DNA from: Gemmatimonadota bacterium
GTDB taxonomy: Bacteria; Gemmatimonadota; Gemmatimonadetes; Palauibacterales; Palauibacteraceae
Assembly: GCA_963666735.1 (NCBI GenBank)
Contig: OY762926.1
Coordinates: 3,200,001 to 3,264,000, forward strand
Direction: 5' to 3'
Length of the DNA stretch: 64,000 nt
Part shown: positions 8,436 to 63,394 of the stretch, piece after piece
How the letters are laid out: each line of letters opens with the position of its first letter
How positions within the stretch are numbered: the stretch's first letter is position 1
Program-made: the position numbers and the translations under genes
Notes under the pieces: model-generated
The model's database searches: none
The model's input: only the letters and a program-made list of their open reading frames with translations
What the model was told of the DNA's origin: nothing

Positions 8436-9527
8436 GTGATGGAGAGACTGTCACAACTGTGGAGCGAAGCGGTGGCCTTCATGGCTCCGCGCTGGCTGCC
8501 CAGCCTGATCGTGATCGCGGCCGCCGGCCTCGTCTACCTCGTGGCGCTGATGGTCCTGGGCCGCGCGCAGAAGCATTGGGTCACGCGAACCGCGACCCAA
8601 CTCGACGATCTCGCCGTGCGGCTGCTCCGCCAGGCGCTGCTGCTCTCGAGCGGGGCCTGGGCGGTCTGGCGCCTGCTGGAGATCTGGACCCTGCCCACCG
8701 TGGCCCAATGGGTCTACGCCATCTGGATCGGCGTCCTCTTCTTCCCGTTGAGCCGCTTCGTCGGGGATCTCCTGACGGCGCTCGAGACCGAGGTCGTCTC
8801 CCGCACCTCGACGCCGCTCGACAAGACGGCGCTCCCGATGGTCAACACGGCGATCCGCTTCGCGATCATCGCCCTCGGCATCGTCCTCGCGCTGGCGGAA
8901 CTGGGCATCAACATCGCGCCGCTCCTCGCCGGCGCCGGCGTCATGGGTCTCGCCCTTTCGCTCGCCGCCAAGGACACGCTCTCCAACGTGATCGCGGGCG
9001 TGCTCCTCATCGTCGATCGCCCCTTCCAGGTCGGGGACCGGATCGAACTGTGGACCGCGCCCAACGAGACGGGGTCCTGGGGCGACGTGATCGAGATCGG
9101 GCTCCGGGCCACGAAGATCCGAAATCCCGACAACCTCGTCGTCGTCGTCCCGAACAATCAGATCATGCAGCGCGACATCATCAACTACACGATGTCGGGC
9201 GAAGACATCAGGCTGCGGATCCCGTTCTCGGTCGCCTACGAGTCGGACATCGAGCGGGCGAAGTCGCTGCTCGTGGACATCGCCCTGAGCGTGGAGGGGG
9301 TGAAGGCCGATCCCGCGCCGATCGTCATCGCCCGCAGTTTCGGCCCGTCGGAGGTCAAGCTTCAACTGCGCGTCTGGATTCTGGAGGCGAGGGCGAGACG
9401 GCGCATCGCCGACGACATCAGCGAGAGGGCGCTCCCCGCCTTCGCGAAGGCGGGCGTGGAGATCCCCTATCCGAAGCGGGAACTCTACATCCGGTCCTCG
9501 GATGGGTCGCTGGCCGGCGGGGGCTGA
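8436..9527 (+). CDS. mscS: Small-conductance mechanosensitive channel
   Basis: LLAGAGVMGLALSLAAKDTLSNVIAG, DRPFQVGDRI, VPNN, IPYP motifs. Confidence 0.9.
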   Translation: MMERLSQLWSEAVAFMAPRWLPSLIVIAAAGLVYLVALMVLGRAQKHWVTRTATQLDDLAVRLLRQALLLSSGAWAVWRLLEIWTLPTVAQWVYAIWIGVLFFPLSRFVGDLLTALETEVVSRTSTPLDKTALPMVNTAIRFAIIALGIVLALAELGINIAPLLAGAGVMGLALSLAAKDTLSNVIAGVLLIVDRPFQVGDRIELWTAPNETGSWGDVIEIGLRATKIRNPDNLVVVVPNNQIMQRDIINYTMSGEDIRLRIPFSVAYESDIERAKSLLVDIALSVEGVKADPAPIVIARSFGPSEVKLQLRVWILEARARRRIADDISERALPAFAKAGVEIPYPKRELYIRSSDGSLAGGG

Positions 9528-11050: not shown

Positions 11051-11647
11051 TCAGAACGAGACGTATCCGCCCATCTGGAAGCGCTCGTCGGACTCGTCGA
11101 CATGGAGGATGAACCGCGCCCCGTAGCGCCGTCCGAACGTCAAGCTCGCACCGGCGGTCGGCTCAACGTAGTCGCTGCCGTCGTAGTGGATCCCCACGCG
11201 GAACCTCGGGCGAACGAGCCAACTGGAACGTCCAAGCAGGACCGAGGCGCCGATATGGTTGCGCGATCCGGCCTGTCGAAACAGAGGGATGGCGATCCCG
11301 GTCATGCCGCCCAGGTCCGTGACGTAGGGGCCGGCGCACCGGTAGGTCTCCACCATCCCGTACAGCGACACCGGCCCCGCGACCCGCCCGTTGATGCCGA
11401 CGTATTGTCCGGGACACTGGTTGTCCCCCACGATCCCGGCTTCGAGCATGAAACGGCGCGCTGCCTCCCGACGGTCCGGTGCCTCCTGCCCCCAAACCTG
11501 CGAGGGCAACACCGCCAGGCACGCCAACGACAGCCAGAAGACATGAGTACGCCTTGCCCCAATGCTGATTCTACCGGCTGGCTCCACGGAGTTGGCGAAC
11601 TCCCCGGCGGCGTAGCGTCGTCGCCAAGCTCTGGCGAAATCGAACAT
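11051..11647 (-). CDS. Hypothetical exported protein (possible small outer-membrane beta-barrel)
   Basis: AGGAG RBS before ATG; hydrophobic signal-like stretch ending VWG-Q; alternating beta pattern and C-terminal YVSF. Confidence 0.5.
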   Translation of the reverse strand: MFDFARAWRRRYAAGEFANSVEPAGRISIGARRTHVFWLSLACLAVLPSQVWGQEAPDRREAARRFMLEAGIVGDNQCPGQYVGINGRVAGPVSLYGMVETYRCAGPYVTDLGGMTGIAIPLFRQAGSRNHIGASVLLGRSSWLVRPRFRVGIHYDGSDYVEPTAGASLTFGRRYGARFILHVDESDERFQMGGYVSF

Positions 11648-12355
11648 GGTGGTCTCCTCGCTTCACCTGAGGTCGTTCTCTGAGCGCCGTCGCCGTTCGG
11701 GCATCTCGACGGTCAAGACCGACACTTGAGAGCTGGCGGCGCATGTCAGCCCGCGATAGAGGGGAATCCCTGAAACCAGCTGTGGGATCACCCGGAAAAC
11801 TCGCCGCTTCGGCAGCGTTCGCGGTCAGGTAGTTCGCCCGCTTCCGGCTGGCCGCGCCAGTCGTCGGAGGTTCCCCCGCCGACCACCAATCACCACCGGC
11901 CGCGGCCGTCGAGTCGGGGCCGAGCCTCCTTCCCAACCCAGCAATAGCCCGGTCGTGCGCGGCGTGACGCGCCCGGGACCTGCGCTGGACGAGGGATGGC
12001 GGGCATGTCCGCTCCCCTGCGCCCGTCCTCGTGGGAGATGGAAGAGCGACACCTTGCCGGTTGCTCGGTCGCCATCGAAGGCGAACCCGTCAGGAGTTCG
12101 AGACCAACGGCTGGCCCGAACGCTGACGGCCCTCACGTCTCATAGCGTCTCAGGTATTCCCATCCATCCATCCATCAAGGTGTGTTTTTCTCCGCCTACT
12201 TCGACGCAAACGCCCGCTCTGCCGCTATCGCGCTCTGTGGAGCTGTCCCGCTTTCACGGACGGTTAGTTTCTGTGGTTGATCGCCTCCGGTTCTTCTCCT
12301 TTCAGCCTCCCTCAGGCGCTCGGGAGAGGATGTCGGTGTGCGCCGCGGGTGCGCC

Positions 12356-13204
12356 TCAGGCCGCATGGTTGCTCTCGTAGTCGGCCGGCGACTCGTAGCC
12401 GAGTGCCGAGTGCAGCCGCCGGGTGTTGTAGAAGCCCTCGATGAAGCCGAAGACCTCCCGTCGCGCCTCGTCCGCCGTGCGGAACGAGCGCTTCCAGATC
12501 AGCTCGCACTCGAGGGTGGCGAAGAAGCTCTCGCACATGGCGTTGTCGTACGCATCGCCCGCCGAGCCCATGGACTGGGCGATGCCCGACTCGCGGCAGC
12601 GCTCCCCGAAGGCGAGCGAGGTGTACTGCGAGCCCCTGTCGGAATGATGCACGACACGACCCTCGGGACGACGCCTTGCGAGAGCCATCGCCAGCGCGGT
12701 CTCGACGAGCTCGGTCCGCATGTGCGTCGCCATGGCCCAGCCGACGACGCGGCGGCTCCAGACGTCGAGCACGACGGCCAGATACAGCCAGCCAGCCCAC
12801 GTGGGGACGTAGGTGATGTCGGCCACCCACAGCTCGTCGGGCCCCGAGGCCGAGAAGTCACGGTCCACCAGGTCCGGCGCGGGGCGGGCCTCGGCATCCC
12901 TCTTCGTCGTCGCCGTCTTGAAGCGCCGCCTGGTCGCGCCCTCGATCTCCAGCCCCCTCATCAGCCGCCCCACGCGCTTCTGCCCCACCCGCTCGCCCTC
13001 GGCCCTGAGCGCCGCGTGGATCCGCGGACGGCCGTACGTCTCGCCGCTGCCGGTCCATATCTTCGCGATCCGCGCCTCCAGTTCCGCGTCCCGACGCGCG
13101 CGGTCCGAGGGAGGACGCCTCAACCAGTCGTAGTAGCCGCTGGGGGAGAGACCCAGCACCCGGCACATGGCCCGAAGCGGGAACTCGGCCCGGTGCGCCC
13201 TCAT
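12356..13204 (-). CDS. IS3 transposase OrfB (DDE/rve integrase core)
   Basis: WVADITY, HHSDRGSQY, DNAMCESFF, YNTRRLHSALGY. Confidence 0.95.
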   Translation of the reverse strand: MRAHRAEFPLRAMCRVLGLSPSGYYDWLRRPPSDRARRDAELEARIAKIWTGSGETYGRPRIHAALRAEGERVGQKRVGRLMRGLEIEGATRRRFKTATTKRDAEARPAPDLVDRDFSASGPDELWVADITYVPTWAGWLYLAVVLDVWSRRVVGWAMATHMRTELVETALAMALARRRPEGRVVHHSDRGSQYTSLAFGERCRESGIAQSMGSAGDAYDNAMCESFFATLECELIWKRSFRTADEARREVFGFIEGFYNTRRLHSALGYESPADYESNHAA

Positions 13205-13515
13205 GAACGCATACCCCCGCCGGGGATCGATCCGCTCTCCCTCGCGAACCAGGCCGCGGCTTTTTTTAGGATGTCGCGCTCCATCCTGAGCCGCTTGTTC
13301 TCCCGCTCCAGGCGCCGCAGCTCGCTGCGCGCCTCCGTTGTCAGCCCGTCGCTACGGAACCCCTCGTCCACATCCGCCTGCCGGACCCAGTTCCGGATCG
13401 TCTGCTCCGACGGCTCGAACTTCCGGGCGAGTGACGCGGCACTACGCCCGCCCCTCACCAGTTCCACCAGCCGCTCCCTGTACTCGGATGGATACCGCCC
13501 CTTCCGGCCCGCCAT
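13201..13515 (-). CDS. IS3 transposase OrfA (HTH); -1 frameshift into OrfB
   Basis: HTH_Tnp_1-like, ends ERDILKKAAAWFA; CTAAAAAAAG slippery sequence at about 13260-13269 (minus strand). Confidence 0.93.
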   Translation of the reverse strand: MAGRKGRYPSEYRERLVELVRGGRSAASLARKFEPSEQTIRNWVRQADVDEGFRSDGLTTEARSELRRLERENKRLRMERDILKKAAAWFARESGSIPGGGMRS

Positions 13516-16460: not shown

Positions 16461-19277
16461 GTGAGCGAGGATGGAGGCCGCGCCGCCGGGGACGGCGGCT
16501 GGGTTGCGGACGGCTACAACGCGGGGTACGCGGAGGGGCTGGTCGAACGGGCGCTCCGCGACCGGGGTGTGATCCCGCCCCCACTGGCGGGCTGGGATCC
16601 GTCGGCCGGGGCGGCCATTGAAGCGCCACCGGGGACGGCACTTCCTGCCCCTCCCCCCGCTCCTCCCCCGCCCGAACCCACGCCTGCCGAGGCGGAGGTC
16701 GTGGCGACGGAGGACCTGCGGCTCGCCGCCATCGCCGGGGCGCTCGTCGAGGCCTACCGGGCGTACGGGCACCTCGGAGCGCGCATCGACCCGCTCGGCT
16801 CCGAGCCCCCGAGGCACCCGCTGCTCGAACCGGACTACCACGGCATCCGCCGCGAGGAACTCGCGCGCGTGCCCGCCTCCGCAGTCTGGCTGAAGCACCT
16901 GGGCAACAACGCCGCCGAGGTCATCGACCGCCTCGAGGAGATCTACTGCGGCCCGATCGGCTACGAGCTCGACCAGATGGAGAACCCGACCCAGCGCGAC
17001 TGGCTCGTGGATTACATCGAGTCGCACCGCCACCGGCTCCTCATGAGCCGCGTGCGGGCGACGGCGTGCCTCGAGTGGCTGACCCGCGTGGAAGGGCTCG
17101 AGACGTTCCTGCACCGCACCTACCTCGGGAAGAAGCGCTTCTCCGTCGAGGGACTCGACATGCTCGTGCCCATGATGCGCGGGATCATCGGGAGCGCGGG
17201 GCGGCGCGGGGCGCGGCAGGTGTTCGTGGGTATGGCGCATCGCGGGCGCCTGAACGTGCTGGCCCACGTCATGGGACTGTCCTACGAGTCGATCGTGGCC
17301 GAATTCGAGGAGCAGGCCGCGCGAGGCATCATGACCGCCCTCCCGGAACACGGCTCCGGCGACGTCAAATACCATGTCGGCGGCCGGTCGCAGGTCGCGG
17401 AGGACGAGGTCGAACTGGACGTGCGGCTCGCCCCCAACCCGAGCCACCTCGAGCACGTGAACCCCGTCGTCCTCGGCATGGCCCGGGGGGCGCGCTTCAC
17501 CGGCGAGGCCTCCGACTCCTCGGCCATTCTCCCGATCATCATCCACGGCGACGCCTCCTTCGCGGGACAGGGGGTCGTGGCGGAGACGCTGAACCTGTGC
17601 CGGCTGCGGCCCTACGAGACGGGCGGCACGCTCCACATCATCACGAACAACCAGCTCGGCTTCACCACCCTTCCCGGCGACAGCCGCTCCACGCGGTATG
17701 CAAGCGATCTGGCGCTCGGCTTCCGGCTCCCGGTCGTGCATGTGAACGCGGACGACCCCGAGGCGTGCATGGCCGCCGTGCGGCTCGCCGTCGACTACCG
17801 GTTCGAGTTCGGGGAGGACCTGGTCATCGATCTCGTGGGCTACCGGCGCTACGGGCACAACGAAGGGGACGAACCCTCATACACCCAGCCCATGATGTAC
17901 GAGCGGGTCGCCTCGCACCCGCGGGTGCGCGCGCAGTTCGCGGAGGCCGTCATCGAGCGGGGGCTCATCTCCCGTGAGGAGGCCGACGACATGGTCGCGG
18001 GTGTGGAGGCGGAACTGGAAGCGGCCAGGGGGGCGATCGCCGCGCACAAGGAAACGGACGAGCAGACGGGGGCGGCGCCGGACCCGAAGCGGCTGTTGGA
18101 TCCGGCGGAGCCGGCGCGGCCGACCGGCATTCCGGAGGCGCGGCTGCGGGAACTCAACGAGGCGGTCCACCGCTGGCCCGAGGGCTTCACGCCCTTCCAC
18201 AAGCTGGGGCGCCAGCTGGAGCGACGCCGTGCCGCGCTGGATGCGGGGATCGACTGGGGGCATGCCGAGGCGCTCGCGCTGGCGGGCCTGCTCACCGAGG
18301 GCGTCCCCGTGCGCCTCACCGGCGAGGACACCGAACGCGGCACGTTCAGCCACCGGCACCTCGTGCTGCACGACGCCGAGGACGGACGCTCGCACACGCC
18401 CCTGGCCCACATCGAGGAAGGGCAGGCGGCCTTCAGGATCGCGAACAGCCCGCTGTCCGAGATCGCCACGCTCGGCTTCGAGTACGGCTTCTCCACGATC
18501 GCCGCCAACGCGCTTGTCATGTGGGAGGCGCAGTTCGGCGACTTCGCCAACGTCGGGCAGGCAATCATCGACCAGTTCATCGTGTCGGGCCGCACCAAAT
18601 GGGGGCTGGAGTCGCGGCTCGTCCTGCTCCTGCCGCACGGCTACGAGGGGCAGGGACCGGAACACTCGAGCGCCCGGCTGGAGCGCTTCCTGCAACTGGC
18701 CGCCGAGGGCAACATCCGCGTCGTGAACTGCACGACGCCCGCGCAATTCTTCCACGCCCTGCGCTGGCAGGCGCTACGGGCGACCTGTCGCCCCCTCATC
18801 GTGATGACGCCCAAGAGCTTGCTGCGCCACCCGCGCGCCCGCTCCACCATCGGCGACCTCACCGGCGGCGCCTTCCGCCCGGTTCTCCCGGACCCCGACT
18901 TCCAGGCCGATCCGTCGCGCGTGAGCCGGGTCATCGCGTGCAGCGGCAAGGTCTACTTCGACCTGCTCGCCGAGTCTCCCCCCGCGCACGACATCCCGAT
19001 CCTGCGCGTGGAGCAGCCCTACCCGTTCCCGGCCCTGGAACTTGGAGCCGCCCTTGCGCCGTATCCTGAAACGGCAGAAGTCTGCTGGGTGCAGGAGGAA
19101 CCGGAGAACATGGGGGCATGGACATACATGCGACCGCACCTGCGAGAACTCATCGGCCGCGAGCCCATCTACATCGGCCGCCCCGAGCGCGCCAGCCCGG
19201 CAGAGGGCTATTTCGGCAAGCACATGCGGCGCCAGCGCCGCCTGCTCCGCACCGCGCTCAGGTTGCCCGAGGAGTAG
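16461..19277 (+). CDS. sucA: 2-oxoglutarate dehydrogenase E1 component
   Basis: GMAHRGRLN, GDVKYH, NPSHLE, HGDASFAGQG (TPP), RRYGHNEGD, WEAQFGDF, LPHGYEGQGPEHSSAR, TPKSLLR. Confidence 0.98.
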   Translation: MSEDGGRAAGDGGWVADGYNAGYAEGLVERALRDRGVIPPPLAGWDPSAGAAIEAPPGTALPAPPPAPPPPEPTPAEAEVVATEDLRLAAIAGALVEAYRAYGHLGARIDPLGSEPPRHPLLEPDYHGIRREELARVPASAVWLKHLGNNAAEVIDRLEEIYCGPIGYELDQMENPTQRDWLVDYIESHRHRLLMSRVRATACLEWLTRVEGLETFLHRTYLGKKRFSVEGLDMLVPMMRGIIGSAGRRGARQVFVGMAHRGRLNVLAHVMGLSYESIVAEFEEQAARGIMTALPEHGSGDVKYHVGGRSQVAEDEVELDVRLAPNPSHLEHVNPVVLGMARGARFTGEASDSSAILPIIIHGDASFAGQGVVAETLNLCRLRPYETGGTLHIITNNQLGFTTLPGDSRSTRYASDLALGFRLPVVHVNADDPEACMAAVRLAVDYRFEFGEDLVIDLVGYRRYGHNEGDEPSYTQPMMYERVASHPRVRAQFAEAVIERGLISREEADDMVAGVEAELEAARGAIAAHKETDEQTGAAPDPKRLLDPAEPARPTGIPEARLRELNEAVHRWPEGFTPFHKLGRQLERRRAALDAGIDWGHAEALALAGLLTEGVPVRLTGEDTERGTFSHRHLVLHDAEDGRSHTPLAHIEEGQAAFRIANSPLSEIATLGFEYGFSTIAANALVMWEAQFGDFANVGQAIIDQFIVSGRTKWGLESRLVLLLPHGYEGQGPEHSSARLERFLQLAAEGNIRVVNCTTPAQFFHALRWQALRATCRPLIVMTPKSLLRHPRARSTIGDLTGGAFRPVLPDPDFQADPSRVSRVIACSGKVYFDLLAESPPAHDIPILRVEQPYPFPALELGAALAPYPETAEVCWVQEEPENMGAWTYMRPHLRELIGREPIYIGRPERASPAEGYFGKHMRRQRRLLRTALRLPEE

Positions 19278-19526
19278 ACGCTCTCAGGGCCATCGACCTC
19301 GGCCGCTCGGAACCCTTCCGAGAGTTGATCGGCGCGGGTCCCGTAAGAAGAAATCCCTGCAAGCACATGCGGCGATCCCCATCTCTTGACGCCCGGCGCG
19401 CCCGCACGGGAAGTTGGTGCCGCTCCACGAGAAGCTGTTGAACCTCGGCACTCAGCAGAGCGTAGATGCCGGAACGGTTCGGTGACGCACTCGAGATGGC
19501 TACGCTGGCGAAGGAGGTCTCTAACA

Positions 19527-20923
19527 TGCGCGATGATCGGCCGGACCACGGAGCTACGCCGGAGGACTCGAACGGGGATAGCCTCCGTTGGATCGAGGAC
19601 CCGAACTGGAGTCCCGGTTGGCCGGCCCAGTACGCCCGGGAAGCCGGTGGCCAGTGGACCGCCGCACACCGCCGGCTGATCGCCAAGCTTCGCGCCGAGG
19701 GTGCACAGTACATCAACCGGAAGCTGGACAACCTCCGCTCCCAGCTCGGTGTCCCTCACAACGGCTGGACCTTCGACCGGACTCAGGGCCCCGCTCAAGT
19801 CGTCATGGACGCCCAGGATGCATTGAAGCGTCTCCAACTTCGCGCTCAGGCCAACCGGACCGACAGGCAACGACTCCGCGATTTGCCCTCACTCGCGACC
19901 CCCGTATCCGAGGGACCGCGCAAACCGACCACTCAGGAGTGGTGGAAGCTTTCGGCCATTCTGGGCGTCTGCATCGCGATCGAGGCTGTTGCGAACAGTT
20001 ATCTGCTGGCGTCGGCGTTGACCACCGGCCTCGTCGGCGCCTTCATCACCGCCATCGTGGTCTCCTTCCTGAACGTCGGAGCCCTCGGCGCCGGCATCGG
20101 CCTGCTGTTGTCGGCGCTCCGCCGCCGGGCGGCCCAGAACGGTCTGTTCTATGGTTGCGTGGCTGCGTGGGGAGCCGCCGCTCTCCTCCTCAACCTTCTC
20201 GTTGGCCGGCACCGGGAGGCGTTTGCCCGCCTGATCGACGCGAGAGAGGAACAGATGAGCGCCGCCATCGAAACGAATATGGCGACGGCCACCGAGATGG
20301 CGTCGACGATTCCCTATATCCCGTCATCGTGGCAATTCGAATCGCTCCTCTTCTTCTGCCTCGGCATCGCGCTCTGCGTCTTCGGTTTCTTCAAGGGATA
20401 TACGTTTATCGGAGCGGGAGATCCGCATCACGCGCGACGCGAACTCGACAACGAGAAAGCAGCGATTCTGAGCGAGTACCACTCGCTGTCCGAGCGCTAC
20501 CGGGGGCGCTTGACCCAGGAGCTGCGGGCGAGCGTCGCGGGGTGGGTCGAGACCCTGGACCAGGCATGGCAGAACGCGATCAACGAACAGGAGGACCTGA
20601 AGGCCAATTGGTCCGGGGGGTCGCTGCTGGCGCGAGTGGAGACGCTGTTCATAGCCGCCTACAACGACTCGCATGCGACGAAGATCGATCAGGCGATGCT
20701 CGACGAACACCGGGACCAGGCGGACATCGACATTTCCTTCCCCGCGACACCGGCGGACGAGCAGGTGCCCGACGATGCGCGTGACATCATCCGCAGATGG
20801 ACCGACACGGACCAGAAGGCGTTCTTCGAGGACATCCACGAGCAAACGAGGGCGGTCGACGGAGTCTGGACGGACTACAGACCCTTGATCGTGGATGAAC
20901 TGGCCGGAACCGAACAGTCATGA
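19527..20923 (+). CDS. Hypothetical membrane protein (about 4 TM segments plus long helical domains)
   Basis: AAGGAGG RBS before ATG 19527; hydrophobic helices in the central part; ATGA overlap with the next gene. Confidence 0.75.
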
Positions 20924-21713
20924 GTTCGACATCGGACGCGGGCAGTGGATCGTCGCTGCTTTGGAAGGGCATCCTCGTCGTCATCGTCCTCGGTCTGTTC
21001 TACGCGGGGTATCGACTGTGGTACGCCGACCAGCTCCGGGTCCACTATGCGGATGGATTCTGCCCCCGGGGAACGTGGCCTCAGGAGCGGGAGGGCGTGG
21101 TCGTCCCCGGGCATACGGTGATCCTGATCGACACGTCGGATGAGATCACGCCGGAGGATGCGGAGGCGGCATTCGACCGGATCGACCATTGGTCGCGCGA
21201 TACCTCCAGGCCCCGTTCCTGCAGAAGATATCCATCTACGGCCTGCCGGAGTCGATGGCGGCGATGCCGGAACAGAGCGGGCGGTCGTGGTGCATCCCCA
21301 GGCCCGGCGCCATGGCGAACGTCCTGTATGAGAACCCCAGAGCAGTGGAGATCGAGTTCCGGCGGTTCCTGCGTGGCGTGAAGACGGAACTCGATTCCCT
21401 GAGGCAGAGGGAACAGGCGGCACAATCCCCCATCGCGGAGACGATGGCGCACCTCGCGCAGCAGCACGAAGATCTCGACTCGTTCGTGCTGGTTTCGGAC
21501 ATGCTGCAGCATTCGACGCTGGCGACGCACTATGGTGGCGATACGTCCCTGACGCCGGAGGCCAGGAGCGAGTGCGAAACGATGTCAGGTGCAGGTCGAC
21601 TGAGGTCCGTGTGGGTGTACTACGTCGACCGGAAACTCGAGGTGCAGGGTAACCTGTGGCCCACGGCCTGGTGGGCCGAGTGTCTCAATGGGGTCCAGGC
21701 ACAGACTCTTTGA
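20920..21713 (+). pseudogene. Membrane-anchored VWA-like protein split by a 1-nt frameshift near 21203 (or a sequencing error)
   Basis: Frame 1 gives TM + HTVILIDTSD ... HWSRDT; the -1 frame continues LQAPFLQKISIY ... SPIAETM ... FVLVSDMLQHS; one extra C in ACCTCCAG would join them. Confidence 0.7.
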
Positions 21714-21732
21714 GATGTGACCTTGAGAGGGC

Positions 21733-21801
21733 GGGTCAGCGGCCCCGGGTCTGGATCGTCTGCTTCATGTCCGAGAGTTCGGAGACCACCTTCTGGTGGA
21801 G
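21733..21801 (-). repeat. Diverged copy of the 3' end of the gene at 25024-25368
   Basis: 62/69 nt match to 25021-25089 by manual alignment; encodes LHQKVVSELSDMKQTIQTRGR*. Confidence 0.95.
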
Positions 21802-21877
21802 CCCTGCGGAGGGATATTTCGGCAGGCACGTGCGGCGCCAGCGCCGCCTGCTCCGCACCGCGCTGCGTCTGGACTGA
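21800..21877 (+). repeat. Diverged copy of the sucA 3' end
   Basis: 21800-21864 matches 19194-19258 at 60/65 nt; encodes SPAEGYFGRHVRRQRRLLRTALRLD*. Confidence 0.95.
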
Positions 21878-22323
21878 AACGCGCGCCACGGGCCGCTTGG
21901 CTTGAAACCGCCGGCCGCTTGATAGCACCTTGATCTGCAGCTGGAGGTTCTTGGGACCGAGGCTTCGGCCGGTGGGCCGCTTGCCGCACGGAACCTCCAA
22001 CGGGAGTCGTCAGAGGATGGGGCTGGATGTGATCATCGCGCTCGTTACCATATTCGTGGCTATCGTCGGCGTCGGCGTCACGCTGGCTGGTCTCACGCGC
22101 AAGCTCGGAGAGAACATCAACGGTGTACGCGACGAGCTTCGGGGCGACATCAACGGTGTACGCGACGAGCTTCGGGGCGACATCAACGGTGTACGCGATG
22201 AGCTTTGGAGCTGTCCCGCTTTCACGGACGGTTAGTTTCTGTGGTTGATCGCCTCCGGTTCTTCTCCTTTCAGCCTCCCTCAGGCGCTCGGGAGAGGATG
22301 TCGGTGTGCGCCGCGGGTGCGCC

Positions 22324-23172
22324 TCAGGCCGCATGGTTGCTCTCGTAGTCGGCCGGCGACTCGTAGCCGAGTGCCGAGTGCAGCCGCCGGGTGTTGTAGA
22401 AGCCCTCGATGAAGCCGAAGACCTCCCGTCGCGCCTCGTCCGCCGTGCGGAACGAGCGCTTCCAGATCAGCTCGCACTCGAGGGTGGCGAAGAAGCTCTC
22501 GCACATGGCGTTGTCGTACGCATCGCCCGCCGAGCCCATGGACTGGGCGATGCCCGACTCGCGGCAGCGCTCCCCGAAGGCGAGCGAGGTGTACTGCGAG
22601 CCCCTGTCGGAATGATGCACGACACGACCCTCGGGACGACGCCTTGCGAGAGCCATCGCCAGCGCGGTCTCGACGAGCTCGGTCCGCATGTGCGTCGCCA
22701 TGGCCCAGCCGACGACGCGGCGGCTCCAGACGTCGAGCACGACGGCCAGATACAGCCAGCCAGCCCACGTGGGGACGTAGGTGATGTCGGCCACCCACAG
22801 CTCGTCGGGCCCCGAGGCCGAGAAGTCACGGTCCACCAGGTCCGGCGCGGGGCGGGCCTCGGCATCCCTCTTCGTCGTCGCCGTCTTGAAGCGCCGCCTG
22901 GTCGCGCCCTCGATCTCCAGCCCCCTCATCAGCCGCCCCACGCGCTTCTGCCCCACCCGCTCGCCCTCGGCCCTGAGCGCCGCGTGGATCCGCGGACGGC
23001 CGTACGTCTCGCCGCTGCCGGTCCATATCTTCGCGATCCGCGCCTCCAGTTCCGCGTCCCGACGCGCGCGGTCCGAGGGAGGACGCCTCAACCAGTCGTA
23101 GTAGCCGCTGGGGGAGAGACCCAGCACCCGGCACATGGCCCGAAGCGGGAACTCGGCCCGGTGCGCCCTCAT
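22324..23172 (-). CDS. IS3 transposase OrfB
   Basis: Identical protein to 12356-13204. Confidence 0.95.
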   Translation of the reverse strand: MRAHRAEFPLRAMCRVLGLSPSGYYDWLRRPPSDRARRDAELEARIAKIWTGSGETYGRPRIHAALRAEGERVGQKRVGRLMRGLEIEGATRRRFKTATTKRDAEARPAPDLVDRDFSASGPDELWVADITYVPTWAGWLYLAVVLDVWSRRVVGWAMATHMRTELVETALAMALARRRPEGRVVHHSDRGSQYTSLAFGERCRESGIAQSMGSAGDAYDNAMCESFFATLECELIWKRSFRTADEARREVFGFIEGFYNTRRLHSALGYESPADYESNHAA

Positions 23173-23483
23173 GAACGCATACCCCCGCCGGGGATCGATC
23201 CGCTCTCCCTCGCGAACCAGGCCGCGGCTTTTTTTAGGATGTCGCGCTCCATCCTGAGCCGCTTGTTCTCCCGCTCCAGGCGCCGCAGCTCGCTGCGCGC
23301 CTCCGTTGTCAGCCCGTCGCTACGGAACCCCTCGTCCACATCCGCCTGCCGGACCCAGTTCCGGATCGTCTGCTCCGACGGCTCGAACTTCCGGGCGAGT
23401 GACGCGGCACTACGCCCGCCCCTCACCAGTTCCACCAGCCGCTCCCTGTACTCGGATGGATACCGCCCCTTCCGGCCCGCCAT
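23169..23483 (-). CDS. IS3 transposase OrfA
   Basis: Identical protein to 13201-13515. Confidence 0.93.
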   Translation of the reverse strand: MAGRKGRYPSEYRERLVELVRGGRSAASLARKFEPSEQTIRNWVRQADVDEGFRSDGLTTEARSELRRLERENKRLRMERDILKKAAAWFARESGSIPGGGMRS

Positions 23484-23821
23484 GGAACACCTCCTTGCTT
23501 GACCCCAATGGATAGGTGTCCGTCAAAGCGGGGCAACTCCACTTCGGGGCGACATCAACGGTGTACGCGACGAGCTTCGGGGTGACATCAACGGTGTACG
23601 CGACGAGCTTCGAGGCGATATCAAGGGCTTGCGCGGTGAGATGGCGACCCTGCGCGCCGAGCTTCGAGGCGACATCAAGGGTGTGCGGGCCGAACTCGGC
23701 GGCCGAATCGATGCGGTCGCCGCCGAACTGACCAGGACGCGCATAGCGGTGGCCAGGATCGAGGGCAGCGTGTTGGGCGTTCCGCTGCCGGACACCGGCA
23801 CGGATCCGGCCTGACCGGCCG

Positions 23822-24151
23822 CTACCGCTGAGCAGCGCTTCCTGACCGCAACAGCACATGGGCCCGTTCGATCTCGCGGTGGAAGCGTTCGGGGAGGCGG
23901 GCCCAATCGTGTACTTCGACGAGGAAGGGGATCGAGGAGTCCTGCAGCGCTTCGACGAATTCCGCGAAACAGCGGATTGGAATCTCTTGGAGATTCGGGC
24001 CGCGGAGCACCAGGTCGAGATCGCTGCCCTCGTGACTCCGCCCGGTGACGCGGCTGCCGTAGGCCCAGACTTCCACGTCGGGCAAGTGTTCGCGCAGCAG
24101 GGCCTCGATCACCGTCCGGTGCCGGCTCCGGAGGTGCAGCCGGTCAGCCAT
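23822..24151 (-). CDS. mntA: Minimal nucleotidyltransferase antitoxin (MNT)
   Basis: VWAYGSRVTGRSHEGSDLDLVL (GSx10DxD); overlaps the stop of the HEPN gene. Confidence 0.88.
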   Translation of the reverse strand: MADRLHLRSRHRTVIEALLREHLPDVEVWAYGSRVTGRSHEGSDLDLVLRGPNLQEIPIRCFAEFVEALQDSSIPFLVEVHDWARLPERFHREIERAHVLLRSGSAAQR

Positions 24152-24566
24152 CCCCCGCTTCCTCGATGGCGGATGCGAGCGCCCGGGCGTCCGCGACAAA
24201 GCCGGGCAGCAGCCGCAGCGTCGCCTCGGCGAAGTCCTTTCCGTAGTCGTGCGCGGTCTTGTTCCGGTTGTCCCTGTACAGGAGCCAGCGCTCGGCGGCC
24301 TCGACATCGATGAGGTCGTGCTTGGCGGCGTGCCTGAAGAGGTCCTTGAAGACAAGGCGGTCGGCCTGCCGGTTGCTGGCGAAGAACGCGGCGAGCCGCT
24401 TCCGAAGGAGCTTGCCGCTCTGTTCCAACACAAGTTCGAATTCCTTCACGCATGCGGCGCGAAAGATGTCGTAGGCGATATCGCCCGGCTCGCAGCGCGC
24501 CAGTTCCTCAAACGCGCGTTCCAGGCTGTCGATACAACGCCTGAGAAACGTCGTGTCGATGCTCAT
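24144..24566 (-). CDS. hepT: HEPN toxin / nucleotidyltransferase substrate-binding protein (HI0074 family)
   Basis: ACVKEFELVLEQSGKLL and RNKTAHDY (RX4HXY) motifs; GGAGGAG RBS. Confidence 0.9.
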   Translation of the reverse strand: MSIDTTFLRRCIDSLERAFEELARCEPGDIAYDIFRAACVKEFELVLEQSGKLLRKRLAAFFASNRQADRLVFKDLFRHAAKHDLIDVEAAERWLLYRDNRNKTAHDYGKDFAEATLRLLPGFVADARALASAIEEAGDG

Positions 24567-24588
24567 GCCGGCGTGGCTCCTCCGTCCC

Positions 24589-24900
24589 TCATAACTCGGA
24601 GGGAGTGAGTAACGGGATAACTCGCCGTCCCCTCTGCCGGTAGATGTGGAAGTCGGAATCGAGCGTCATGACCGAAGCGTGCTCCGTCAACTCGACGATC
24701 CTCACCAGGCACGCGCTGCACTGGAAGACTCGGATCGGCGCCGAAGCACCGGAGGATGAACGAAGTCTCGGACAGGACCGCTTCGCAGGTAAGCAGCGGC
24801 GCCTTCAGCGTGTCGAACTGCCGTCGCGCCCAATCATGCCGCATCTCACCACGGTCGATCAGCGCGACGACGGGGCCCGTGTCAACGACTACGGTTGGCG
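24589..24900 (-). pseudogene. PIN-domain (VapC) toxin with an internal deletion/frameshift and no clear start
   Basis: VVVDTGPVVAL ... TCEAVLSE in one frame; LVRIVE ... VMTLDSDFHIYR ... IPLLTP in another; the central part is missing. Confidence 0.8.
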
Positions 24901-25023
24901 GCAACGTAGTCGGCGTCAACGAGCATGGCCTCTTCGAGCAACTCCGGGGTCGGAACTCGGAGTCGCGGTCGAGTGCTTCGCCAAGAATCTCGCGCAACTG
25001 GGGGATCCAAGAAAGCGGAGGGG

Positions 25024-25368
25024 TCAGCGGATCCGGGTCTGGATCGTCCGCTTCATGTCCGACAACTCGGAGACCACTTTCTGGTGGAGAACGCCGAGGG
25101 CCTGGCTGTTGCCGTCCTCCTCGGAGTCGGAGAGTTCCTCCAGACGCGTCTTCGCTCCATCGTACTTGCGCTCCAGCCGGTCGATCATGGCCATGATCTG
25201 CACTTTTCGGCCGGCGCGGGCCTCGCGGAGCTTCACCCTCAGCTCCTCGGCCCCTTCGCGGTACTTCTCGACCGTCGCGGTCGTCCGCTGCAGCATCTGC
25301 TCGTAGTTGTCGGAAAGCTCCATCCAAACCGCCTCGGTCAAGAACTTCGCGGTGCGACGCCTCGCCAC
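25024..25368 (-). CDS. Small helical/coiled-coil hypothetical protein
   Basis: 114-aa charged helical ORF after actF; its duplicated 3' end shows several synonymous changes, supporting coding status. Confidence 0.75.
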   Translation of the reverse strand: MARRRTAKFLTEAVWMELSDNYEQMLQRTTATVEKYREGAEELRVKLREARAGRKVQIMAMIDRLERKYDGAKTRLEELSDSEEDGNSQALGVLHQKVVSELSDMKRTIQTRIR

Positions 25369-33376: not shown

Positions 33377-33450
<74 letters not shown>

Positions 33451-33467
33451 TCGGAACGCCGCTACGG

Positions 33468-33542
33468 GGGGCTGTAGCTCAGCCTGGTTAGAGTGCCGGT
33501 CTGTCACACCGGAGGTCGCGGGTTCAAATCCCGTCAGCCCCG
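33468..33542 (+). tRNA. tRNA-Asp(GTC)
   Basis: Acceptor GGGGCTG/CAGCCCC, anticodon arm CCGGT-CTGTCAC-ACCGG, GGTTCAAATCC. Confidence 0.96.
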
Positions 33543-33565
33543 TTTCCAAACAACGTGTCGAGCGA

Positions 33566-33639
33566 GGGGCCGTAGCTCAGTCTGGGAGAGCGCTTGAATC
33601 GCACTCAAGAGGTCGCGGGTTCGAGTCCCGCCGGCTCCA
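33566..33639 (+). tRNA. tRNA-Ala(CGC)
   Basis: Acceptor GGGGCCG/CGGCTCC with G3:U70, anticodon arm CTTGA-ATCGCAC-TCAAG. Confidence 0.95.
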
Positions 33640-33713
33640 CTGCCGTCGCGTCCACCCCCTGCCACCCCGGCGAAACCCTCGCCCCGGGCAGCACGGGTAG
33701 CGTCCGGCGGCTC

Positions 33714-33785
33714 GCCACCGTAGCTCAGGGGTAGAGCACCGCATTCGTAATGCGGCGGTCGTCGGTTCAAATCCGACCGGTGGCT
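33714..33785 (+). tRNA. tRNA-Thr(CGT)
   Basis: Acceptor GCCACCG/CGGTGGC, anticodon arm CCGCA-TTCGTAA-TGCGG. Confidence 0.96.
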
Positions 33786-33846
33786 CTGGCAACACCCCTC
33801 CGCCCTGGCCGGCCCGACACGCCGCCAGCCGGAGGGAACAGCACAA

Positions 33847-33919
33847 GCGGGTGTAGCTCAGCTGGTAGAGCGCAACCTTGCCAAGGTTGAGGTCGCCGGT
33901 TCGAATCCGGTCACCCGCT
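33847..33919 (+). tRNA. tRNA-Gly(GCC)
   Basis: Acceptor GCGGGTG/CACCCGC, anticodon arm CAACC-TTGCCAA-GGTTG. Confidence 0.96.
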
Positions 33920-33995
33920 CTAGAAGGCCGGCTCGCCGCTCCGTCAGCGAGCGCGAGCCCGGCCCCGCGCCAAGCGCGCGGTCCGCAGTACCCCT

Positions 33996-34069
33996 CGGGG
34001 CGTGGCTCAGTCCGGTAGAGCGCTGCGTTCGGGACGCAGAGGTCCCCGGTTCAAATCCGGGCGCCCCGA
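33996..34069 (+). tRNA. tRNA-Pro(CGG)
   Basis: Acceptor CGGGGCG/CGCCCCG, anticodon arm CTGCG-TTCGGGA-CGCAG. Confidence 0.96.
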
Positions 34070-35338: not shown

Positions 35339-38197
35339 ATGACACCGAACGAGTTCATTGCGAAGTGGCAGGCCTCGGAGCTGAAGGAGCGCTCCGCGGC
35401 GCAGGAGCACTTCATCGATCTGTGTCGGCTGCTCGGGGAACCCACACCGGCGGAGGCCGATCCGAAGGGCGAGCACTACTGCTTCGAGCGCGGGGCGCGG
35501 AAGGACTCCGGCGGGGACGGATGGGCGGACGTGTGGAAGCGGCACTGCTTTGCGTGGGAGTACAAGGGGAAGCACGCCGACCTCGACGCCGCGTTCGACC
35601 AGTTGAGACAGTACGCGCTCGCGCTCGAGAACCCGCCGCTCCTGATCGTCTCGGACATGCGCCGGTTCCGGATCCGGACGAACTGGACGAACTCCGTGAG
35701 CAAGACGCTGGAGTTCAAACTGGACGATCTCGCCGACGCCGCCGTCCGGGACAAGCTCAAGTGGGCGATGTCCGATCCAGAGCGGCTACGGCCGGGCGAG
35801 ACCCGCCAGACGCTGACCGAACGCGCCGCGCAAACGTTCGCGCAGCTCGCGCAGTCGCTCAGGGACCACGGCCACGCCCCACACGAGGTGGCGCACTTCG
35901 TGAACCGCCTCGTGTTCTGCATGTTCGCCGAGGACGTGGGGCTGCTCCCCGGCGAGATGTTCACCCGCATGCTCAAGCACGCGCGCCAAGAGCCCGAGCA
36001 GTTCGCCATCTTGGCGCGCGACCTGTTCGGCGCGATGTCGGCCGGGGGCCGCGTCGGGTTCGAGACCGTCCAGTGGTTCAACGGCGGGCTGTTCGAGGAC
36101 GACGCGACCCTCCCCATGGACAAGGAGCAGATCGAGACGACGCTTGAAGCGTCCGAACTCGACTGGTCCAACATCGATCCCTCGATCCTCGGCACGCTGT
36201 TCGAACGCGGTCTCGACCCGGACAAACGCTCGCAGCTCGGAGCGCACTACACGGACCGGGACAAGATCATGCGGATCATCGATCCCGTGATCGTCCGCCC
36301 GTGGCTCGCAGAGTGGGGGACCGCGAAAGCCCGGATCGCCGACAGCCTCGAACGCGCAAACGCGGCGAAATCAAAGGCCGCGACTACGCGAAACCGCAAA
36401 CAAGCGGAGAACTCGCTCGGCTCGTTCCTCGAGCGGCTACGGAAGTTCACCGTGCTCGATCCGGCCTGCGGCTCCGGCAACTTCCTCTACCTCGCGCTCC
36501 ACTCCCTCCACGACCTGGAACACCGAGTGCAGCTGGAAGCCGAGGCGATGGGACTTCAGCGCGCTTTCCCATCGGTCGGTCCCGCCAACGTGAAGGGAAT
36601 CGAGTTGAACGCGTACGCGGCGGAGTTGGCGCGCGTATCGGTGTGGATCGGCGAGATTCAGTGGATGCGGCGCAACGGGTTTCCGGGCTCGCGCGAGCCG
36701 GTCCTCGATCCGCTGGAGACGATCGAATGCCGCGACGCGATCATGGCCTCGGAGGGCGGCGAGCCGGAGTGGCCCGAGGCGGATGTCATCATCGGCAACC
36801 CGCCGTTTCTGGGCGGCAAGCTGCTCATCACAAACCTCGGCGAGGAATACGTCTCGACCCTGTTCCGGGTGTACGAGGACCGGGTGCCCCGCGAAGCTGA
36901 CCTCGTCTGCTACTGGTTCGTGAAGGCCGGCGAACACTTGGGCAAAGGGGCGTCGAAGCGGGTCGGCATGGTCGCGACCAACTCGATTCGGGGCGGAGCA
37001 AACCGCCGGGCGCTGGAGCGGGCGACGGACGGCAGGCCGATCTTCGACGCGTGGAGCGACGAGCCGTGGGTGGTGGATGGGGCGGCCGTGCGCGTCTCGC
37101 TCGTGTGCTTCTCACAATCTGAGGACGAACTCACGCCGGGGCGCCGGCTCGACGGCGAGGCAGTGGACGAGATTTACACGGACCTGTCGGCGCGTCGCGG
37201 CGAGGCTGGCGTCGACCTTACGAAGGCGCGGCGCCTCCCTCAAAACGCCGGCGTGGCCTTCATGGGCGACACCAAGGGTGGCCCGTTCGATGTTCCTGGT
37301 GAGGTCGCCCGAGAGTGGCTTCGGGAACCCTCCAATCCCAACGGCCGTCCCAACTCGGACGTACTCGCACCGTGGATGAACGGCATGGCCATCACCCGGC
37401 GCCCCGCCGACAAGTGGGTCGTCGACTTCGGCTGGAACATGGTGAAGGAGGAAGCCGCCCTGTACGAGGCTCCGTTCGAGCATGCCCAGGAACACGTCTT
37501 CCCGATGCGGCAGCGCAATCGGCGCGAGGCGTACCGCATAAACTGGTGGCGACACGTCGAGCCGAGACAGGGCATGTGGAAGGCTCTCGACGGGCTGTCT
37601 CGGTACATCGTCACACCCACCGTTGCCAAACACCGCCTCTTCGCTTGGCTCGACGCCCGGATCTGCCCCGACCATCAGCTCATCGTCATCGCGCGCGACG
37701 ACGACACCACGTTCGGGATCCTGCACAGCCGCTTCCACGAGGTCTGGTCGCTCCGCAAGGGCACCTCGCTCGGGAAAGGGAACGACCCCCGCTACACCCC
37801 CACCACAACCTTCGAGACCTTCCCCTTCCCGGAAGGACTCTCGCCCGACGTCTCCGCCACGGACTACGTGACGGACCCGCGCGCCCAGGCGATCGCTTCC
37901 GCGGCACGTCGGCTCGTCGAACTCCGCGACCGCTGGCTTAACCCGCCCGAGTTGGTGGAGTGGGTTGAGGAACCCGTCCCCGGCTATCCCCCGCGCCCGG
38001 TCCCCCGCGACGAAAAGGCGACTGCGCTCAGGAGGCGCACCCTCACCAACCTCTACAACACCCGCCCACAATGGCTCCTCGATGCCCACGCGCAACTCGA
38101 CGCCGCTGTAGCCGCCGCCTACGGCTGGCCCAGCGACATCACCAACGACGTGGCGCTACGGAAGCTCCTTGCACGAAACCGGTCGGACTACACTTAG
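35339..38197 (+). CDS. Type IIG/IIL restriction-modification enzyme (MmeI/YeeA-like: nuclease + N6-adenine MTase + TRD)
   Basis: N-terminal ADVWKRHCFAWEYKG (PD-D/ExK), LDPACGSGNF, IIGNPPF, ATNSI, RYTPTTTFETFPFP, LTNLYN, HAQLDAAVAAAYGW. Confidence 0.92.
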   Translation: MTPNEFIAKWQASELKERSAAQEHFIDLCRLLGEPTPAEADPKGEHYCFERGARKDSGGDGWADVWKRHCFAWEYKGKHADLDAAFDQLRQYALALENPPLLIVSDMRRFRIRTNWTNSVSKTLEFKLDDLADAAVRDKLKWAMSDPERLRPGETRQTLTERAAQTFAQLAQSLRDHGHAPHEVAHFVNRLVFCMFAEDVGLLPGEMFTRMLKHARQEPEQFAILARDLFGAMSAGGRVGFETVQWFNGGLFEDDATLPMDKEQIETTLEASELDWSNIDPSILGTLFERGLDPDKRSQLGAHYTDRDKIMRIIDPVIVRPWLAEWGTAKARIADSLERANAAKSKAATTRNRKQAENSLGSFLERLRKFTVLDPACGSGNFLYLALHSLHDLEHRVQLEAEAMGLQRAFPSVGPANVKGIELNAYAAELARVSVWIGEIQWMRRNGFPGSREPVLDPLETIECRDAIMASEGGEPEWPEADVIIGNPPFLGGKLLITNLGEEYVSTLFRVYEDRVPREADLVCYWFVKAGEHLGKGASKRVGMVATNSIRGGANRRALERATDGRPIFDAWSDEPWVVDGAAVRVSLVCFSQSEDELTPGRRLDGEAVDEIYTDLSARRGEAGVDLTKARRLPQNAGVAFMGDTKGGPFDVPGEVAREWLREPSNPNGRPNSDVLAPWMNGMAITRRPADKWVVDFGWNMVKEEAALYEAPFEHAQEHVFPMRQRNRREAYRINWWRHVEPRQGMWKALDGLSRYIVTPTVAKHRLFAWLDARICPDHQLIVIARDDDTTFGILHSRFHEVWSLRKGTSLGKGNDPRYTPTTTFETFPFPEGLSPDVSATDYVTDPRAQAIASAARRLVELRDRWLNPPELVEWVEEPVPGYPPRPVPRDEKATALRRRTLTNLYNTRPQWLLDAHAQLDAAVAAAYGWPSDITNDVALRKLLARNRSDYT

Positions 38198-39238: not shown

Positions 39239-39442
39239 TCAGTCTTGGCTTCGGGTGTCAGCACGCCCAAGCAGTTCGACGGCCTGATACCGCGAGACCG
39301 TAGGGTAGTCGTGGAGGAAATCGTCAAGTCGGTCACCCGCTTCGAGATGCTCCATCAGTATCCGCACCGGAACCCTCGTGCCGGAGAACACCGGAATCCC
39401 GCCTAAGATGTCCGGGTCCCTGTCGATAAGCCTGTCCGTCAT
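39239..39442 (-). pseudogene. DUF433 (VapB45-like) antitoxin, 3'-truncated copy
   Basis: DPDILGGIPVFSGTRVPV ... DYPTV; homology to 43703-43927 stops at 39268. Confidence 0.85.
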
Positions 39443-39618
39443 GATTGCCTCCGTCGGCGATCTCTTGCTGGCTCCCGCAGAGCACGCAGTCTAACGATAG
39501 CCCCATCCGACACGCCTCTGCATCTCTCCTCGAAGCAGGTCCGAGGATCGAGCCACTCCAGACCGCTTCAGTTCGTCACGCAGGCCCGCCGGATCGGACC
39601 GTGCCGGTGCACTCACGT

Positions 39619-40764: not shown

Positions 40765-41151
40765 GATCCTTCCTTCATCGCGTCGGCGGCAATCTACCCG
40801 TCGCTCGGATCGCCTCCGGCCTACGTTCGGCCTCCACTCCGTCGGCTGGCCGGCCTGAATCGCGTCAACGCGCCCCACCACACCAAGTACATCACGGAGG
40901 GTTTTCCGGAAACGCGAAAGCCCGTGCCGGAGCACGGGCCTCGGAAGGAGGGCAAGTCTACGCTTGCGTCTCGAAAGGGAGCCTGTGTCATGGGGCCGGG
41001 GGCGTCAAGGTTCCGGTGCGGGGCAGGACTGGCATCGACAGCTGGTCCAAGGACTACTTGCATGCCGGACCAGCCGTTAGGAGTTTCGTCCAAGACGATC
41101 CATCGGACCACCGCCCAGATAGGGAGACACGGAGTCCGATCATTTAGACCC

Positions 41152-63241: not shown

Positions 63242-63367
63242 CTCGCCGACATCTCGAACATCCGACGCCTCGGGCTGGTGATAATGGGCGGCCGGATCGT
63301 CGACATCGACGCGCTCCCCACGAACCCGATCGCCCTCGACTGGTCCGCCGGGGCGCCGAAGAGGTAG
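63242..63367 (+). repeat. Diverged copy of the amidohydrolase 3' end
   Basis: 63242-63361 matches 58845-58964 at 110/120 nt and ends in its own TAG. Confidence 0.95.
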
Positions 63368-63394
63368 CGTTGCGGCTCGGCCGTTAGTGTTAGT

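What the first reader, a model, noticed from the sequence alone, without database searches (positions are those of the whole stretch)
19194..25089. Integrase-free cassette stacking: fused 3' ends of both flanking genes separate two cargo blocks
Seen: sucA> cargo A <X' | sucA'> cargo B <X. X' (21733-21801) is a 62/69 copy of the convergent gene's end and sucA' (21800-21864) is a 60/65 copy of the sucA end. They are joined over a 2-nt AG microhomology, and each keeps its reading frame and a stop. Many differences are synonymous (CCG/CCT, GCA/GCG, GGC/GGA, GAG/GAA, AAA/AAG), so the copies look like orthologous alleles from another lineage, not decayed duplicates. Inference: each cargo is an alternative allele of one intergenic slot. 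A donor slot bounded by ~65-70 bp of each flanking gene circularised or joined illegitimately and was added in tandem. The junction would also allow precise excision of either cargo by recombination between the short repeats. No recombinase is encoded nearby. With the similar case at 58845/63242, this is my best candidate for an undescribed gene-acquisition mechanism.
Basis: partly seen in the sequence, partly recalled or inferred. Interest (0 to 1): 0.78.

Follow-up and report, generated by a model that had tools for sequence, protein, structure and literature searches.

The report
Gene cargo stacked by circle integration
A sponge-associated bacterium added a foreign gene block next to its existing one, most likely by recombining in a small DNA circle with ordinary repair enzymes instead of an integrase, and its genome carries several similar scars.

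Summary
The structure is real: sucA> cargo A <X'|sucA'> cargo B <X, 60/65 and 62/69 copies joined over AG. Contigs of 3 of 4 laid runs, from three studies, cross the joint unchanged. The sucA-X gap is a variable slot across the genus; only this genome has both ends twice (1 of 25, 1 of 23). Relatives give the order of events. G014 matches the working sucA before a 34-bp identical block and the echo plus cargo B after it; L102 shares all 7 diagnostic bases of the working X. So cargo B was resident and both sides of the joint are foreign: a 2,606-bp donor circle carrying cargo A entered by one crossover. The 58845/63242 pair shows the same switch, and three more double-echo stacks occur elsewhere in the genome. 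No shared att core; nearest tyrosine recombinase about 285 kb away; Ku/LigD, ComEC and DprA present. The chemistry is known from the laboratory (PMC3240628), so this is a new variant, not a new mechanism. An unchecked note of this scan reports the same layout in another genome (e1-7070514).

The parts
16461..19277 (+). sucA (2-oxoglutarate dehydrogenase E1), 938 aa, intact; last 19 bases (long RLPEE tail) inferred to come from the donor
   Evidence: Pfam E1_dh, Transket_pyr, OxoGdeHyase_C; tail comparison
19194..19258 (+). Left copy of the 65-bp sucA arm; first 31 bp resident-type
   Evidence: 1 mismatch to G014 in bases 1-31 against 4 for the echo
19225..19258 (+). 34-bp block identical in both sucA copies (also 21831-21864): inferred crossover interval
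   Evidence: G014 switches from left copy to right copy across it
19526..20923 (+). Cargo A gene 1, 465 aa, hydrophobic membrane-type protein of no named family
   Evidence: no Pfam, NCBIfam or PADLOC hit; unnamed Atlas clusters; 84-86% relatives in 4 genomes
20920..21713 (+). Cargo A gene 2, about 265 aa, possibly vWA-like (lead only); 1-base assembly error at 21202
21733..21801 (-). X': 69-bp foreign allele of the 3' end of gene X, with stop
   Evidence: 62/69; differs from L102 at 7 of 7 diagnostic sites
21800..21801 (.). AG microhomology joint between X' and sucA'
   Evidence: spanned by contigs of 3 of 4 runs
21800..21877 (+). sucA': donor-type first 31 bp, shared 34-bp block, then the displaced resident tail (RLD stop)
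   Evidence: 0 mismatches to G014 in bases 66-78, 5 of 32 in 79-110
22017..23814 (+). Cargo B: small membrane-anchored 33-bp-repeat (coiled-coil-like) gene, split by IS3; the commonest occupant of this slot
   Evidence: in the slot in 8 of 20 relatives; 92-93% to G014
22206..23541 (-). IS3-family element with 3-bp target duplication (CTT); many near-identical copies in the genome
   Evidence: Pfam HTH_Tnp_1, rve; ends; copies
23822..24566 (-). Cargo B: HEPN-type substrate-binding gene plus minimal nucleotidyltransferase (type VII toxin-antitoxin-like pair; scores under the NCBIfam cut-offs)
   Evidence: same pair in this slot in G007 and G050
24589..24930 (-). Cargo B: frameshifted PIN-like remnant (label from my reading of the translation, not from a family hit)
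   Evidence: matching DNA next to X in G002, G007, G042, G050
25024..25323 (-). Gene X, 99 aa conserved helical protein (weak sll1863-family hit, under cut-off); resident copy
   Evidence: 7 of 7 diagnostic bases shared with L102
58845..58973 (+). Second case, left copy: 3' end of an amidohydrolase-family gene
   Evidence: relatives match this copy in its first half
63242..63370 (+). Second case, right copy after a 4.4-kb insert; relatives match it in its second half
   Evidence: G017 and G011 have the empty site; switch seen in 5 of 5 relatives

Best explanation
The sucA-X gap is a variable slot whose content is normally swapped between related lineages by homologous recombination in the flanking genes. 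Here the swap went additive. A donor piece [sucA 3' arm - cargo A - X 3' arm] was closed on itself at a 2-nt AG microhomology (a 2,606-bp circle, or an equivalent join point already made in the donor) and entered a cargo-B chromosome by ONE homologous crossover in the 34-bp block that donor and resident shared. That restored a full sucA with the donor's tail, pushed the resident tail and cargo B downstream, and left X'|sucA' as the scar. Short, diverged arms make pop-out rare, so such stacks persist; longer arms are trimmed later by microhomology deletions. Shown: structure, slot variability, allele switch across the block, foreign bases on both sides of the joint, repeats of the layout elsewhere. 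Inferred: the circle itself, RecA as the crossover enzyme, Ku/LigD or microhomology joining as the closer, uptake route (competence, phage or vesicles), and whether AG is the first joint or a later deletion joint.
For: Crossover signature: G014 matches the working copy at 4 of 5 sites in bases 1-31 (G007 at 5 of 5), then the echo in bases 66-110 and cargo B at 92-93%. Working X equals L102 at 7 of 7 sites, so X' is foreign. L055 carries cargo A with a 50-bp X-end-like tail, so cargo A has sat next to X in another lineage; G042 has a 27% homologue right after sucA. Same switch at 58845/63242 in 5 of 5 relatives, empty site in 2 of 5. Three more double-echo stacks (genome 1220040, 2534630, 2669816). 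At 2534630 G017 carries only cargo 1 and G020 carries cargo 2 next to the right-hand gene; the displaced end is 98.0% to G017 against 94.6% for the working end. At 2669816, 4 of 5 relatives carry only cargo 2 and G020 has cargo 1 next to the right-hand gene. Direct bias 74 vs 8. Perfect blocks differ in sequence and length, 16-92 bp, over 20 pairs, no consensus by eye. Ku beside a full LigD, ComEC, DprA present. Laboratory precedent: PMC3240628 (passages and Discussion read).
Against: No donor genome was found: no relative pairs the echo's first 31 bp with the long sucA tail. The two resident stand-ins are different genomes and flanks are mosaic: L102's sucA end and G014's X end do not match this genome, and sucA's last 1.4 kb is only 75-97% to the otherwise 96-98% G017. 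The switch rests on 5 sites. 2 of the echo's 5 bases and 3 of X's 7 are seen in no close relative and could be decay. No clean switch at genome 3583559. Pooled synonymous share 40% fits duplication plus decay as well. No circle was observed. A perfect block of 34 bp is short for RecA (own knowledge). Transforming DNA enters single-stranded, which Ku/LigD do not join (own knowledge).
Confidence: 0.68

Rival explanations
1. Homology-facilitated illegitimate recombination of a linear fragment: homologous anchor in sucA (or X), far end joined at AG to the resident gene upstream of the slot, so DNA is added with a duplication; later gene conversion or decay blurred the alleles.
For: 2-nt microhomology; ComEC and DprA present; sucA 3' 1.4 kb is mosaic; proposed for additive arrays in Vibrio (PMC5361080, passages). 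At genome 2534630 the data fit this and the circle equally.
Against: Predicts one resident side at the joint; here both sides look foreign. As described it usually deletes resident DNA (PMC3240628, Introduction passage); here nothing is deleted.
Confidence: 0.16
2. A remnant island or cis-mobilisable element integrated by a distant tyrosine recombinase, with the 34-bp block as att core and sucA' as the displaced gene end.
For: Crossover near a gene's 3' end with a replacement tail is what att islands do (own knowledge); 8 tyrosine recombinases in the genome; cargo A lies beside such elements in L054 and L055.
Against: No common core among 20 pairs; arms mid-gene and at 5' ends; donor carries homologous sequence upstream of the core and the end of a second gene; nearest tyrosine recombinase about 285 kb away; no serine recombinase found.
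Confidence: 0.08
3. A spontaneous tandem duplication of the slot in the resident, then replacement of one copy's cargo by an ordinary allele swap, then decay.
For: Direct-repeat bias and erosion by deletion are what tandem duplications give; pooled synonymous share only 40%.
Against: Predicts resident bases next to the joint on both sides; both sides differ from the resident stand-ins at 4 sites each, and X' there equals the genus consensus.
Confidence: 0.06
4. Assembly chimera of two strains.
For: Metagenome-derived genome with 4.67% contamination; a 1-base error lies 600 bp away; the best-matching runs may be the source sample.
Against: Joint bridged with 0 differences in contigs of three runs of three studies, one from 2016.
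Confidence: 0.02

Closest known systems
Recircularisation of trimmed linear DNA followed by single-crossover (Campbell) integration, E. coli conjugation assay (PMC3240628; passages and Discussion read)
   Same: End-joined circle, one crossover, insertion flanked by a duplicated part of the homologous arm (109-950 bp there; 38-600 bp here); 56 of 60 clones, ten times more frequent than HFIR.
   Different: There an engineered plasmid under selection, identical arms, frequency about 4e-9; here natural, inter-lineage alleles, arms of two genes, repeated at several slots of one genome.
Homology-facilitated illegitimate recombination (HFIR), and its proposed role in Vibrio cholerae type VI effector/immunity arrays (PMC5361080, passages)
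   Same: No integrase; one homologous exchange plus one microhomology joint; old cargo pushed downstream.
   Different: HFIR joins donor to resident and usually deletes; here donor seems joined to donor and nothing is lost. Cargo here is unrelated genes in housekeeping slots, not one effector family.
Minimal mobile elements of Neisseria (definition read in passages of PMC3787668 and PMC1797815; original papers not seen)
   Same: Different cassettes between two conserved genes, mosaic flanks, no mobility genes.
   Different: Those are replacements by two crossovers; this is an addition with duplicated gene ends.
att-flanked islands and cis-mobilisable elements at 3' ends of protein genes (recalled; also named in notes e1-7546143, e1-5249361)
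   Same: Replacement 3' end, displaced original end downstream.
   Different: No conserved core, second gene's end on the element, arms also mid-gene and 5'.
Transformation-induced merodiploids of Streptococcus pneumoniae (PMC3784515, abstract only)
   Same: Incoming DNA yields tandem duplications without a dedicated recombinase.
   Different: 100-900 kb and bounded by repeats such as IS861; here 2-6 kb and bounded by a microhomology joint.

Membership tests
Circle plus single-crossover integration | Insert flanked by direct copies of the homologous arm, no resident DNA lost | tested here: met
   G014 order sucA, repeat gene, X is all retained
Circle plus single-crossover integration | Reciprocal chimeric copies (resident/donor left, donor/resident right) | tested here: met
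   for the resident halves at sucA and 58845; donor halves inferred, donor unsampled
Circle plus single-crossover integration | Free circle and RecA dependence | not testable with these tools
   contigs cannot show circles
HFIR | Microhomology of about 3-10 bp at the joint | tested here: inconclusive
   2 bp here; 0-12 bp or inserted bases at other joints
HFIR | Joint links donor to resident DNA, usually with a deletion | tested here: not met
   both sides look foreign, no deletion; rests on 4 sites a side
HFIR | Natural competence | tested here: inconclusive
   ComEC and DprA genes present; they are also present in non-competent control genomes
Minimal mobile element | Two conserved flanking genes with different cassettes among relatives | tested here: met
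   empty in 7 of 20, repeat gene in 8 of 20, other cargo in 5 of 20
Minimal mobile element | Incorporation by homologous recombination alone (replacement) | tested here: not met
   this allele needs a non-homologous joint; the slot as such may qualify
att island / cis-mobilisable element | Conserved att core and a cognate integrase in cis or trans | tested here: not met
   no shared core, none in cis; action in trans on one site cannot be excluded

The most novel reading that the evidence does not exclude
In sponge-associated Gemmatimonadota, end-joining (Ku/LigD, found in 33 of 36 genus genomes) routinely turns incoming chromosomal fragments of relatives into small circles that integrate by one crossover. 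This converts allele replacement into allele stacking at any variable slot: a common, integrase-free route of gene gain that also ferries cargo between slots and leaves a countable scar.
Probability: 0.3. Interest if true: 0.72.

Novelty: new variant of a known kind. Interest (0 to 1): 0.5.

Why it matters
Many variable spots between core genes lack mobility genes and are explained by replacement, which swaps content but cannot add one lineage's cargo to another's. This locus shows an additive route with a readable signature (back-to-back foreign gene ends plus reciprocal chimeric arms) that can be counted in any genome set. If it tracks Ku/LigD, it would give natural evidence for a role of bacterial end-joining in gene transfer, which so far rests on laboratory capture assays (PMC6379672, abstract and passages). 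It also warns that such scars can be mistaken for att sites or assembly errors.

Tried and rejected
A 15-bp motif at the right end of cargo A in L052, L054 and L055 looked like a mobile-element end; in this genome it has 0 matches at up to 1 mismatch and 12 at 2, within shuffled controls of 1-35: it is just the cargo's tail. The tyrosine-recombinase elements showed no long gene-end echoes at their borders (output was cut). Serine recombinase families: none found. Metagenome scan for the 34-bp block: 0 hits; for the X end: 4 loci, none doubled. No second genome with this stack. Early idea that X' was the displaced resident end (it matches G017 and the genus consensus) was dropped after L102. 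Site L063 had no informative orthologue; site L064 gave no clean switch. Excision could not be judged: contigs end at the repeat, and no skip joint was among the 15 of 24 joints shown. Runs with small word shares were not used. Cargo A function unresolved. Gene calls outside the window come from my own rough hexamer model. No baseline of echo density in unrelated bacteria was run; 16 direct vs 5 inverted pairs in 440 kb of relatives' loci is from loci chosen near cargo. Paper searches listed no paper describing this double-end scar; most subscription journals, including the original HFIR and minimal-mobile-element papers, are not in the library (PMC122325 not held), and no supplements were read, so absence from print is not shown.
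Full report
Observation. The window lies in a single-contig 3.98-Mb, 68.5% G+C genome. Runs holding the stretch are labelled sponge metagenome or coded organisms, and close relatives of its cargo are titled Gemmatimonadetes or Longimicrobiales; 'Palauibacter-like' comes from an unchecked note (e1-749998). The two copies are as described: 21733-21801 vs 25021-25089 (62/69) and 21800-21864 vs 19194-19258 (60/65), overlapping in AG, each with frame and stop. Contigs of X15, X17 and X4, from three studies, cross the joint without a difference; none was listed for X1 in a cut table. One of the high-share runs may be the source sample, but X4 is a 2016 study. The same call shows a 1-base error at 21202 in this assembly.

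Anatomy. Left: intact sucA. Cargo A: a 465-aa membrane-type protein and an overlapping 265-aa partner; no family hit, only a weak vWA lead. Cargo B: a 33-bp-repeat gene split by an IS3 with a 3-bp target duplication, a HEPN/nucleotidyltransferase pair and a PIN-like remnant. Right: gene X, 99 aa.

The slot. Of 20 relatives fetched, 7 have an almost empty gap, 8 have the repeat gene in it and 5 have other cargo; none shows echoes of the gene ends. Eleven more loci and G042 add no echo. Only this genome has the X end twice (1 of 23 with a match, 36 searched) or the sucA end twice (1 of 25). Cargo B's other modules sit next to X in G002, G007, G042 and G050. Cargo A protein matched 1 of 35 genus genomes, at 27%, directly after sucA in G042. 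Four close copies (84-86%) lie at unrelated loci of other genomes; L055 keeps a 50-bp tail translating like the X end, and L052 joins cargo A over a 7-bp microhomology to a 148-bp, 95% echo. So cargo A both has X-adjacent history and travels between slots.

Order of events. G017 (96-98% over most of the window) first suggested X' was the displaced original. L102, 98% on the X side, shares 7 of 7 diagnostic bases with the working X and has the repeat gene after sucA, so working X plus cargo B is resident and X' is foreign. G014 matches the working sucA in bases 1-31 (1 mismatch vs 4), both copies equally in the 34-bp block, and the echo afterwards (0 vs 9, 5 vs 24 mismatches), continuing into cargo B at 92-93%; G007 also pairs the working-type first part with the short tail. 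The pre-event allele is thus left-copy start plus right-copy tail, the pattern of one crossover in the block. Both sides of the AG joint then belong to the donor, which makes the incoming unit a 2,606-bp circle or an equivalent donor join point. Caveats: the donor is unsampled, the two stand-ins are different genomes with mosaic flanks, and the switch rests on 5 sites.

Generality in this genome. Near repeats are 114 direct of 120, far ones 366 of 736; single-copy local pairs 74 direct vs 8 inverted, a set that includes some paralogous domains. Of 29 with one copy in a called gene, 22 lie downstream of it, 11 include the 3' end and 4 the 5' end. Eighteen joints were aligned: four jump back 4.1-6.2 kb like the focal one; most others jump forward 90-2,646 bp within one gene or operon, so echoes are eroded by deletions, with 0-12 bp overlaps or a few inserted bases. 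At 58845/63242 two of five relatives have the empty site and all five switch from left to right copy. At genome 2534630 G017 has cargo 1 only and G020 has cargo 2 beside the right gene; the displaced end is closest to G017 and the other echo is foreign (88% vs 95%). At 2669816 four of five relatives have cargo 2 only and G020 has cargo 1 beside the right gene. At 1220040 G011 has cargo 1 only and G017 has both cargos with a different piece of echo, either a shared stack eroded differently or an independent event. At 2867887 relatives are empty and the echo is a deleted form of an arm of at least 1.46 kb. Against: no clean switch at 3583559, and 144 of 356 pooled differences synonymous (all changes in a changed codon counted as non-synonymous).

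Enzymes. Eight tyrosine recombinases, the nearest about 285 kb away; no serine recombinase found (genome 94% complete). Perfect blocks of 20 pairs share no visible consensus. Ku lies head to head with a three-domain LigD and is in 33 of 36 genus genomes; ComEC, DprA and MutS are present. Presence does not show involvement.

Known systems. PMC3240628 (passages, Discussion) reports that in E. coli trimmed linear DNA recircularises and integrates by a single crossover, giving 109-950 bp duplications in 56 of 60 clones. PMC5361080 (passages) proposes HFIR for additive arrays in Vibrio. PMC3787668 and PMC1797815 (passages) define minimal mobile elements as replacements. PMC3784515 (abstract) covers large merodiploids; PMC6379672 (abstract, passages) shows end-joining capture of foreign DNA; PMC13617665 (passages) invokes recombination at flanking core genes for small islets; PMC3410848 (passages) gave nothing relevant. 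Eight searches listed no description of this double-end scar, but the library lacks most subscription papers and no supplements were read. The scan noted the same layout in another genome (e1-7070514) and single-end versions read as integrase-less islands (e1-7546143, e1-5249361); these are unchecked and were not tested here.

Verdict. Real; best read as additive integration of a foreign slot allele through an end-joined circle and one crossover (0.68). It works like laboratory circle integration, sits in a minimal-mobile-element-type slot, and fails the tests for HFIR proper and for att islands. New variant of a known kind; interest 0.5. The bold reading, that end-joining makes this a routine route of gene gain in this lineage, has probability about 0.3.

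Noticed in passing
window 21202: 1-base deletion in this assembly splits cargo A gene 2; contigs of two runs carry the base.
   Followed up: yes
window 20050-21343: Runs X1, X15 and X17 hold a second cargo A allele (182 differences) at three to seven times the depth, so another organism in the same samples carries it.
   Followed up: no
window 39261-47874: Island with HTH genes, HicB-like, RelB/YafQ and PIN genes after an MmeI-like gene (35339-38197); holds direct echoes 40049/42772 and 40608/47749 and a 199-bp inverted pair 39261/43686.
   Followed up: partly
window 11051-13515: Second identical IS3 copy plus one extra gene at a site that is empty in relatives.
   Followed up: no
genome 88981-94460 (L061): A 3.7-kb gene is echoed just downstream as four fragments joined by deletions, about 670 bp in all.
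   Followed up: partly
L055:1268-1389 and 8848-8968; genome near 177580, 201327, 1065854, 1113576: Conserved non-coding stretch with a strong inverted repeat beside a family of 430-510 aa tyrosine recombinases (genome 146148, 188596, 204048, 1115227, 2933708): candidate transfer origin of a small integrative element family.
   Followed up: no
genome 158505-162226: About 3.7 kb array of roughly 75-bp units at 72% identity, outside my gene calls.
   Followed up: no
window 19526-21713: Cargo A is a conserved two-gene module (membrane protein plus possible vWA partner) with unnamed clusters mostly in Pseudomonadota; function open.
   Followed up: partly
window 22017-23814 and L032, L096: The 33-bp-repeat gene varies in repeat number among relatives and is tandemly doubled in G008.
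   Followed up: no
window 33395-34066: Cluster of six tRNA-like repeats just before the variable region.
   Followed up: no
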